A stretch of 63,317 nt of DNA, the filler included, from Chiloscyllium plagiosum (Eukaryota): assembly GCF_004010195.1 (NCBI RefSeq). It is 6 parts of 6 records of this genome, joined end to end, with 100 filler letters (N's around TTAATTAATTAA, not from the genome) between each part and the next. Parts side by side here need not be neighbours in the genome. Positions count along the whole stretch, not along the records: positions 57,127 to 58,543 come from NW_025153826.1; 5 more parts are not named here. The stretch is one strand, 5' to 3'. The notes beneath the pieces were generated by a model. It had not been told where the DNA came from and made no database searches. It was given only the letters and a program-made list of their open reading frames with translations. Shown in pieces: positions 58,212 to 58,490 of the stretch (the first letter of the stretch is position 1; each line of letters starts with the position of its first letter). A program made the position numbers and the translations under genes.

Positions 58212-58490
58212 ATATCCCGACGGTGCGACTGTACCTAGATGAATCTGGAGTCTCCGGTCGCAGGGTCATGCTGAACTGCCTGGTTTCAGACCTATTCCCG
58301 CCAGCGGCAGAGGTCACCTTCCAGAAGAATGGCCAGCCCCTGGAGAGGATGGATAAAACCGTCCTGTTCACCTTTGACAGCAGCTGGGGATACACCGTCC
58401 TGTACCATATCCAGATAGAGCCCACAGTCGGAGACAGATACTCGTGTCTTGTGGAACTGGTAAACAAACAGCAGATCCAGGAATACTGGG
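58212..58490 (+). CDS. WA: MHC W-category-like alpha chain gene 3, isolated Ig-C1 alpha2 exon
   Basis: ctcttcccag| ... TGG G|gtacgg, 279 nt, phase 1/1. IPTVRLYLDESGVSGRRVMLNCLVSDLFPPAAEVTFQKNGQPLERMDKTVLFTFDSSWGYTVLYHIQIEPTVGDRYSCLVELVNKQQIQEYW. Same Cys spacing and F/W positions as gene 1. Confidence 0.75.

What the first reader, a model, noticed from the sequence alone, without database searches (positions are those of the whole stretch)
58212..58490. Third beta2m-like alpha2 exon: an old, diversified gene family
All three Ig exons have identical Cys-to-Cys length (57 aa inclusive), Trp at position 37, a non-Trp hydrophobe at position 15, an A-strand Tyr and PxxGxxYSC. By hand count they share only 20/57 (gene 1 vs 2), 19/57 (1 vs 3) and 18/57 (2 vs 3) residues in that span. 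About one-third identity with fixed interface residues implies ancient lineages under shared structural constraint, not recent duplicates. Gene 3 also lacks the usual CxVxH His.
Basis: partly seen in the sequence, partly recalled or inferred. Interest (0 to 1): 0.7.

Follow-up and report, generated by a model that had tools for sequence, protein, structure and literature searches.

The report
Third shark W-category MHC alpha gene

Summary
The three exons are alpha2 domains of the three published shark W-category alpha-chain lineages (Okamura 2021): gene 1 is DS10-like, gene 2 DS5-like, gene 3 Nds3L (50 of 93 identical to white-shark Nds3L by hand count, same length, same His-to-Leu change). 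The exon is neither an orphan nor tapasin/SIRP-like: contigs from three studies join it at both splice sites to an alpha1 end and a connecting-peptide start that match bamboo-shark orthologues. Corrections: (1) the window is six pieces joined by linkers, so it shows no linkage; (2) core length, PxxGxxYSC and the A-strand Tyr also occur in nurse-shark class II alpha, so only Trp61 and non-Trp37 are diagnostic; (3) interface positions 55 and 57 differ between lineages; (4) the missing His is a lineage trait already visible in the published alignment. Small additions: Nds3L occurs in carpet sharks, and in one bamboo-shark assembly it lies on another chromosome than DS5/DS10. This scan noted a DS5-like W exon before in another genome. 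New member of a known kind; low interest.

The parts
58212..58490 (+). Gene 3: alpha2 (C1-set Ig) exon of W-category alpha chain, Nds3L lineage; 93 codons, phase 1-1
   Evidence: lineage name from PMC8713811 Dataset S2; both borders spliced in contigs of X9 and X10, 5' border in X19
58190..58211 (+). Pyrimidine tract and AG acceptor of exon 3
   Evidence: joint at this place in X9, X10, X19
58488..58543 (+). 23-base minisatellite that begins at the exon's splice donor and runs to the end of the piece; likely cause of the assembly break
   Evidence: 2.4 copies, 87% match; summed contig depth 26,000-34,000 in run X1 against about 6 over the exon
57127..58543 (.). Segment 5: the 1,417-base piece that holds exon 3 alone; no alpha1, leader or transmembrane exon of this gene is in the window
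6183..6443 (-). Gene 1 (WA DS10-like) alpha1 exon
   Evidence: 100% to P0005 over the 76 residues that model holds
4266..4547 (-). Gene 1 (WA DS10-like) alpha2 exon
   Evidence: 94 of 94 to P0005
2277..2470 (-). Gene 1 connecting peptide, transmembrane and tail exon (to the stop)
   Evidence: 64 of 64 to P0005
53195..53252 (+). Gene 2 (WA DS5-like) leader exon, coding part
   Evidence: 19 of 19 to P0010
54138..54410 (+). Gene 2 (WA DS5-like) alpha1 exon
56552..56833 (+). Gene 2 (WA DS5-like) alpha2 exon; its transmembrane exon is not in the piece
57027..57126 (.). Artificial linker between gene 2's piece and gene 3's piece (like linkers at 8626-8725, 24807-24906, 50409-50508, 58544-58643)

Best explanation
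The exon encodes the membrane-proximal Ig domain of a bamboo-shark W-category MHC alpha chain of the Nds3L lineage, is spliced between an alpha1 exon and a connecting-peptide exon, and its protein likely pairs with a W-category beta chain to form a class II-shaped, low-polymorphism surface molecule held together by class I-type contacts. Shown here: intact exon, both splice joints, C1-set domain, lineage. Inferred from beta2m structures and from salamander W chains (PMC8713811): Trp61, Phe57 and Phe55 would pack under the alpha1/beta1 sheet as in beta2m under class I, Tyr8 would bond the beta chain's Pro57, and the glycine-patterned transmembrane helix would pair with the beta chain. Committed guess on function (about 0.4, untested): a non-classical, near-invariant ligand for an immune receptor, not a polymorphic peptide presenter. 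The three genes are old paralogues, each kept across shark orders with its own pattern at interface positions 55 and 57, probably each with its own beta partner.
For: Orthologues: P0001 (C. punctatum) 86% and P0002 (H. ocellatum) 84%, both with alpha1-like, C1-set and transmembrane parts. Hand count against white-shark WA Nds3L in Dataset S2: 50 of 93 identical without gaps, with the same short G strand and the same His-to-Leu, against 32/85 and 21/85 to white-shark DS10 and DS5 domains. Tree of 35 domains: Nds3L 99/95, DS5 95/97, DS10 86/90, each one side of a branch. Splicing: contigs of X9 (870 nt) and X10 (916 nt) match 58211-58490 and go on in sequence that reads as the alpha1 end and the connecting-peptide start of P0001/P0002; X19 shows the same 5' joint; X1 instead runs through the intron. 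All 60 shown PDB sequence hits (of 405) hold beta2m; Pfam C1-set E 2e-13; model pLDDT 84, best structural matches TMq about 0.85. The orthologue's ectodomain matches class II alpha chains over 171-178 residues at TM 0.71-0.74 in an Atlas model of modest confidence. Across the runs laid, two exon positions differ from the window, one silent.
Against: No beta-chain gene was found in the window (DM-beta queries only) and none was retrieved, so the partner was not tested. The runs holding the spliced form are not on record as RNA; their nature is read from the intron-less joints. In about 2% of the raw single-cell RNA run X21 no read lay on the exon (not informative on expression). My own fold of the orthologue's alpha1 failed (pLDDT under 50 for residues 21-111), and Pfam finds no MHC alpha1 family in it. 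The white-shark and blue-shark Nds3L sequences were not retrieved by my searches and are not in my tree; the name rests on a hand comparison. The function of W molecules is stated as unknown in PMC9586880.
Confidence: 0.93

Rival explanations
1. Orphan pseudo-exon or decaying gene fragment.
For: The exon stands alone on a 1,417-base piece. Nds3L alpha2 differs more between bamboo sharks than DS10 does (73/85 and 70/85 against 81/85 and 79/85; Fisher p about 0.06). It has lost the His and lacks the common N-glycan site.
Against: Open frame and canonical splice sites; in-frame joints to both neighbouring exons in contigs from separate studies; whole, open orthologues in two related species; the His loss is shared with white and blue shark; a donor-side minisatellite explains the break, and the older C. 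punctatum assembly also has this exon on a 1,357-base contig (P0028).
Confidence: 0.015
2. Exon of a non-MHC C1-set gene (tapasin-, TAPBPR- or SIRP-like) or of a conventional class II alpha or DM-like gene.
For: Database names of the orthologues say 'class II alpha chain-like'. HLA-DM chains appear among structural hits (ranks 18 and 31) and as the first structural row for the orthologue; DM-beta proteins were the only other hits of the Nds3L profile, at E 1e-6 to 8e-5. DM-alpha of frog, anole, chicken and opossum also lack the His.
Against: Phe at position 37 where all class IIA and DM-alpha rows read have Trp, and Trp61 with Phe57; one Ig domain between an alpha1-length exon and a class II alpha-type membrane segment; sequence hits are beta2m. 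Tapasin and SIRP sequences were not placed in my tree; the case against them rests on architecture and best hits.
Confidence: 0.02
3. Nds3L is not as old as DS5 and DS10 but a fast-evolving offshoot of DS10 that arose inside sharks. This changes the age, not the identity.
For: Nds3L is seen only in three galeomorph orders; no ray, squalomorph or chimaera copy among the 26 and 8 hits. It is sister to DS10 (87/85) and DS10 monophyly is only 86/90. Exon 3 is closer to lamniform DS10 (32-33/85) than to bamboo-shark DS10 (24-25/85).
Against: The word-based searches also missed the known white-shark Nds3L, so absence means little. Alpha1 of Nds3L and DS10 did not align (alignment starts at residue 107). 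The stem branch is long (0.94 changes per column).
Confidence: 0.3

Closest known systems
W-category MHC alpha chain, subgroup WA Nds3L (white shark, blue shark; Okamura et al. 2021, PMC8713811, Datasets S1-S3; white-shark protein labelled XP_041037343 in PMC10751288 Suppl. Fig. 5)
   Same: Same 93-residue alpha2 without gaps, Tyr8, Phe37, Phe55 (as white shark), Phe57, Trp61, short G strand, Leu for the F-strand His; 50 of 93 identical to white shark by hand count; the orthologues' membrane segment has the same pattern.
   Different: Comes from a carpet shark, an order not among the two Nds3L rows of the published datasets; the C-D segment is changed and lacks the N-S-S site that blue-shark Nds3L keeps (white shark also lacks it).
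WA DS10 and WA DS5 subgroups (banded houndshark and relatives; genes 1 and 2 of this window)
   Same: Same domain order, 57-aa core, non-Trp37, Trp61.
   Different: About 27-30% identical to exon 3 in alpha2 (23/85 and 25/85); keep the His (28 of 28 domains); DS5 mostly has Val57; most keep the N-S-S site (7 of 7 DS10, 16 of 21 DS5).
beta2-microglobulin
   Same: Best sequence and structure match among solved structures; shares non-Trp37, Phe57, Trp61, Tyr8.
   Different: beta2m is a soluble single domain and its core is one residue shorter in the rows read; this domain is spliced to an alpha1 exon and a membrane anchor.
Conventional MHC class II alpha2 (nurse shark) and DM-alpha
   Same: Same chain layout; nurse-shark class IIA has the 57-aa core, PxxGxxYSC and Tyr8; several DM-alpha lack the His.
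   Different: They keep Trp37 and, but for anole DM-alpha, lack Trp61; none of the rows read has both Phe57 and Trp61.

Membership tests
W-category alpha chain (WA) | Trp61 in the alpha2 Ig domain | tested here: met
   (invariant in 27 of 27 aligned rows)
W-category alpha chain (WA) | Phe/Leu instead of the Ig-core Trp37 | tested here: met
   Phe
W-category alpha chain (WA) | Tyr8, Leu55 and Phe/Tyr57 as in beta2m | tested here: met
   Tyr8 and Phe57 present; position 55 is Phe, as in published white-shark Nds3L
W-category alpha chain (WA) | Class II alpha layout: leader, alpha1, alpha2, connecting peptide and membrane segment with class II glycines | tested here: met
   Splice joints on both sides (30 letters seen on each side); full layout in orthologues P0001, P0002, P0027. 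The other exons are not in the window.
W-category alpha chain (WA) | alpha1 folds as an MHC membrane-distal half domain with class I-type residues | tested here: inconclusive
   Own model of the orthologue low-confidence there; the Atlas model matches class II alpha chains at TM 0.71-0.74; no Pfam alpha1 hit
W-category alpha chain (WA) | alpha2 closer to beta2m than to class II alpha2 | tested here: met
   All 60 shown PDB sequence hits hold beta2m. By best hit, not by tree: no beta2m or class IIA row.
W-category alpha chain (WA) | Paired head-to-head with a WB gene | not testable with these tools
   The piece is 1,417 bases and no genome is held
W-category alpha chain (WA) | Forms a heterodimer with WB and needs it to reach the surface | not tested
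   No WB sequence in hand; shown only for salamander in PMC8713811
WA Nds3L subgroup | Closer to published Nds3L than to DS5 or DS10; His-to-Leu; short G strand | tested here: met
   50/93 by hand against 32/85 and 21/85; own clade 99/95
Conventional class II alpha / DM-alpha | Trp37 kept in alpha2 | tested here: not met
   Phe37; Trp in all IIA and DMA rows read
beta2-microglobulin | Soluble single domain without alpha1 or membrane anchor | tested here: not met
   Spliced to an alpha1 end and a connecting peptide
Tapasin / SIRP-like C1-set genes | Several Ig domains, Trp-core C1 domain | tested here: not met
   One C1-set stretch in the orthologues; best hits are beta2m. The family features are recalled, from no call.

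The most novel reading that the evidence does not exclude
Nds3L is the functionally derived W branch: it has lost the His beside the BC-loop proline (as several DM-alpha chains have), has a shortened, fast-changing alpha1, and in at least one bamboo shark has left the W cluster for another chromosome. It could be a groove-less accessory chain that does a DM-like editing or chaperone job in sharks, which are reported to lack DM.
Probability: 0.04. Interest if true: 0.7.

Novelty: new member of a known kind. Interest (0 to 1): 0.12.

Why it matters
W-category molecules are the proposed link between MHC class II and class I, and their function is unknown (PMC8713811, PMC9586880). The family, its three shark subgroups and its place outside the shark MHC are in print, so this exon adds little: it extends Nds3L to carpet sharks and shows it spliced. 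One practical value: all three alpha lineages are present in one bamboo-shark species, so partner, ligand and expression can be compared side by side. Databases file these genes under ordinary class II names.

Tried and rejected
Own-genome search: no genome held. Search of exon 3 among longer proteins gave 2 hits of 40 candidates; a three-lineage profile gave 26 of 7,996; an Nds3L-only profile gave 8 of 7,991, six of them DM-beta-type or unnamed at weak E-values: no ray, squalomorph or chimaera Nds3L, but the known white-shark one was missed too, so no claim of absence. The word-free profile search met a full queue five times, was accepted and had not run: no result. No RNA holder listed for the stretch. 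Raw single-cell run X21, about 2 in 100 read: no read on the exon, not informative. X17 (another organism label) has one 151-base contig inside the exon. Full-length fold of the orthologue: alpha1 unreliable, so the class II hits were not used. Faster evolution of Nds3L alpha2: trend only (p 0.06 against DS10; 0.64 and 0.18 against DS5). dN/dS not run: no orthologous DNA in hand. No complex prediction: no WB chain in hand. Linkage from the window rejected: linkers. Segment 5 shares no DNA with segments 1 or 4 at E 1e-10. Sequence look-up among earlier notes: nothing. Rows left out of the domain table: P0005 and P0010 (same as genes 1 and 2), P0007, P0019, P0027, P0029 (isoforms or partial duplicates); P0028 also left out of the tree. 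The Trp filter used to cut domains fixes Trp61 by construction, so one search is cited for it. Literature: 6 searches; of the 20 papers listed (115 held a term), none has 'Nds3L' in its main text. The SI Appendix of PMC8713811 was too large to read and may already list carpet-shark Nds3L or discuss the His.

Full report
1. Observation. Window 58212-58490 (+) is an intact 279-base exon with an AG acceptor at 58210-58211 and a GT donor at 58491-58492, phase 1 at both ends. It encodes a C1-set Ig domain (Pfam PF07654, E 2.2e-13). Two related exons lie at 56552-56833 (+) and 4266-4547 (-). The core pattern occurs 3 times in the window and 0 times in 100 shuffles.

2. The window is a composite. Five linkers of N44-TTAATTAATTAA-N44 cut it into six pieces of 8,625, 16,081, 25,502, 6,518, 1,417 and 4,674 bases. 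Genes 1, 2 and 3 lie on pieces 1, 4 and 5; pieces 2 and 3 hold Ig heavy-chain constant exons and piece 6 a cytidine deaminase exon (the names IgM and AID are my recognition, from no call). Gene 1 equals the Chiloscyllium plagiosum model P0005 in all three exons, and that model's contig has the length of piece 1; gene 2 equals P0010 of the same species. That piece 5 is from the same species is inferred. Being in one window is therefore no evidence of linkage.

3. What it is. All 60 shown PDB sequence hits, of 405, hold beta2-microglobulin, and a model of the domain (pLDDT 84) matches beta2m-sized chains at TMq about 0.85, with HLA-DM chains at like scores. Okamura et al. 2021 (PMC8713811; I read parts 1-5 of 6 of the main text, Dataset S1 part 1 of 7, Dataset S2 parts 1-3 of 6 and rows of Dataset S3; the SI Appendix could not be read) describe the W-category: class II layout, class I interface residues, Trp61 and Phe/Leu37 in the alpha chain's Ig domain. 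Dataset S2 lists three shark alpha subgroups: DS5 (8 rows), DS10 (8 rows) and Nds3L (2 rows: blue shark, white shark). By hand count exon 3 is identical to white-shark Nds3L at 50 of 93 positions without a gap, and shares its short G strand and Leu for the F-strand His. It matches white-shark DS10 and DS5 domains at 32/85 and 21/85. Gene 1 matches DS10 proteins and gene 2 DS5 proteins, the houndshark references among them. In a tree of 35 domains the three groups each form one side of a branch (Nds3L 99/95, DS5 95/97, DS10 86/90), with Nds3L next to DS10 at 87/85 (the outgroups are long branches and the published Nds3L rows are not in it).

4. It is a working exon, not an orphan. Whole orthologues exist in C. 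punctatum (86%) and Hemiscyllium ocellatum (84%), with an alpha1-length part before the Ig domain and a glycine-patterned membrane segment after it. Contigs in X9 and X10 cover exactly 58211-58490, show no depth in the upstream intron from 57370 to 58185, and go on in unrelated sequence on both sides; X19 shows the 5' joint. The 30 letters shown on each side read, in frame, as the end of alpha1 and the start of the connecting peptide of those orthologues. The three runs belong to three study codes. They are not on record as RNA; the intron-less joints are the evidence, and X1 runs through the intron as DNA would. The isolation has a mechanical cause: a 23-base minisatellite starts at the donor and has very high depth in X1; a high-copy repeat lies at the other end of the piece. 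Two variant positions were seen, one silent and one Met to Thr.

5. Which features carry weight. The 57-residue core, PxxGxxYSC and Tyr8 are also in nurse-shark class II alpha, and beta2m cores are one residue shorter, so these do not mark the domain as beta2m-like. Trp61 and non-Trp37 do. Positions 55 and 57 of the same interface differ by lineage (A/F, L/V, F/F), which fits each alpha chain having its own beta partner (inference). The His is kept in 28 of 28 DS5 and DS10 domains and is Leu in 4 of 4 Nds3L rows from three species and in both published rows. In human beta2m the matching His84 lies beside Pro32 of the BC loop (PMC3029554, passages); its loss may stiffen or reshape that loop (inference). 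It is not unique: clearnose-skate beta2m and four DM-alpha rows also lack it.

6. Age and place. DS5 and DS10 have skate or ray members, so they predate the shark-ray split. Nds3L is so far seen in three galeomorph orders, so it predates their divergence; greater age is likely but not shown, and origin from DS10 inside sharks is not excluded (about 0.3). Nds3L alpha2 tends to differ more between bamboo sharks than DS10 does, without significance. In H. ocellatum the three lineages lie on contigs of one length (2,149,616 bases) with neighbouring accession numbers, hence one scaffold by inference. In C. punctatum DS5 and DS10 lie on a 63.0-Mb sequence and Nds3L on an 82.0-Mb one. Verissimo et al. 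2023 (PMC10751288; section 10, passages, supplement parts 96-97 of 98) report that elasmobranch W genes are multicopy, syntenic and outside the MHC, and draw one white-shark pair on an unplaced scaffold whose accession is next to that of Nds3L, while Okamura et al. report a cluster of three presumable pairs in white shark.

7. How it most likely works. Shown: exon, splicing, fold class, lineage. Inferred: the chain pairs with a WB chain, as salamander WA and WB do; Trp61 and Phe57 pack under the distal sheet as in beta2m; Tyr8 bonds the beta chain. W subgroups lack full peptide-anchor sets and high polymorphism, and their function is called unknown, with a role as gamma-delta T-cell ligands only speculated (PMC9586880, passages). 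I commit to a near-invariant surface ligand for an immune receptor (about 0.4); the rest goes to small-ligand presentation or an accessory role. The alpha1 fold could not be modelled well here; the Atlas model of the orthologue fits class II alpha chains. That sharks lack DM I saw only in a title and the start of its abstract (PMC8010645, search listing).

8. Verdict. Real, correctly described, and correctly read as an old family, but it is the published W-category with its three named shark subgroups. New here: Nds3L in a carpet shark with evidence of splicing, and a hint of a different chromosome in one assembly; the unread SI Appendix may cover the first. Earlier notes of this scan reached the same family for a DS5-like exon and a beta gene in other genomes, and describe splice-donor minisatellites in other shark MHC genes. 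Interest 0.12.

Noticed in passing
window 8626-8725, 24807-24906, 50409-50508, 57027-57126, 58544-58643: Identical artificial linkers: the window is a join of six separate immune-gene pieces, so gene order here is not biological.
   Followed up: yes
window 58488-58543: A 23-base minisatellite starts at the exon's donor, so each copy repeats a donor-like site; the spliced contigs use the first one. The C. punctatum read-through model P0028 suggests the same repeat there.
   Followed up: partly
P0001/P0027 against P0006, P0030, P0031: In C. punctatum Nds3L lies on an 82.0-Mb sequence and DS5/DS10 on a 63.0-Mb one, while H. ocellatum has all on a 2.15-Mb scaffold: translocation or misassembly.
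   Followed up: partly
P0003, P0004: Basking-shark and white-shark models join a DS10 ectodomain to a DS5 chain (two alpha2 domains); likely gene-model fusions of neighbours, read-through not excluded.
   Followed up: no
P0006/P0007/P0031, P0016/P0017, P0009/P0032; window 54138-54410 and 56552-56833: DS5 proteins within one species have nearly the same alpha2 but very different alpha1 types, which points to conversion of alpha2 or alternative alpha1 exons; the published dataset lists two houndshark forms, n1 and n4.
   Followed up: no
window 8726-50408: Two similar Ig heavy-chain constant loci (90-94% alike over about 12 kb); at least one exon has an in-frame stop (near 28170) and others look frameshifted.
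   Followed up: partly
window 59608-60156: Open frame with a cytidine deaminase exon that reads like AID (recalled), followed by tandem repeats that copy the exon's end.
   Followed up: no
window 58212-58490: Bamboo-shark Nds3L alpha2 has no N-glycan site (0 of 4 rows), while 7 of 7 DS10 and 16 of 21 DS5 domains have N-S-S at one place; blue-shark Nds3L keeps it.
   Followed up: partly
window 57130-57330: High-copy short repeat, SINE-like by depth and loose ends.
   Followed up: no
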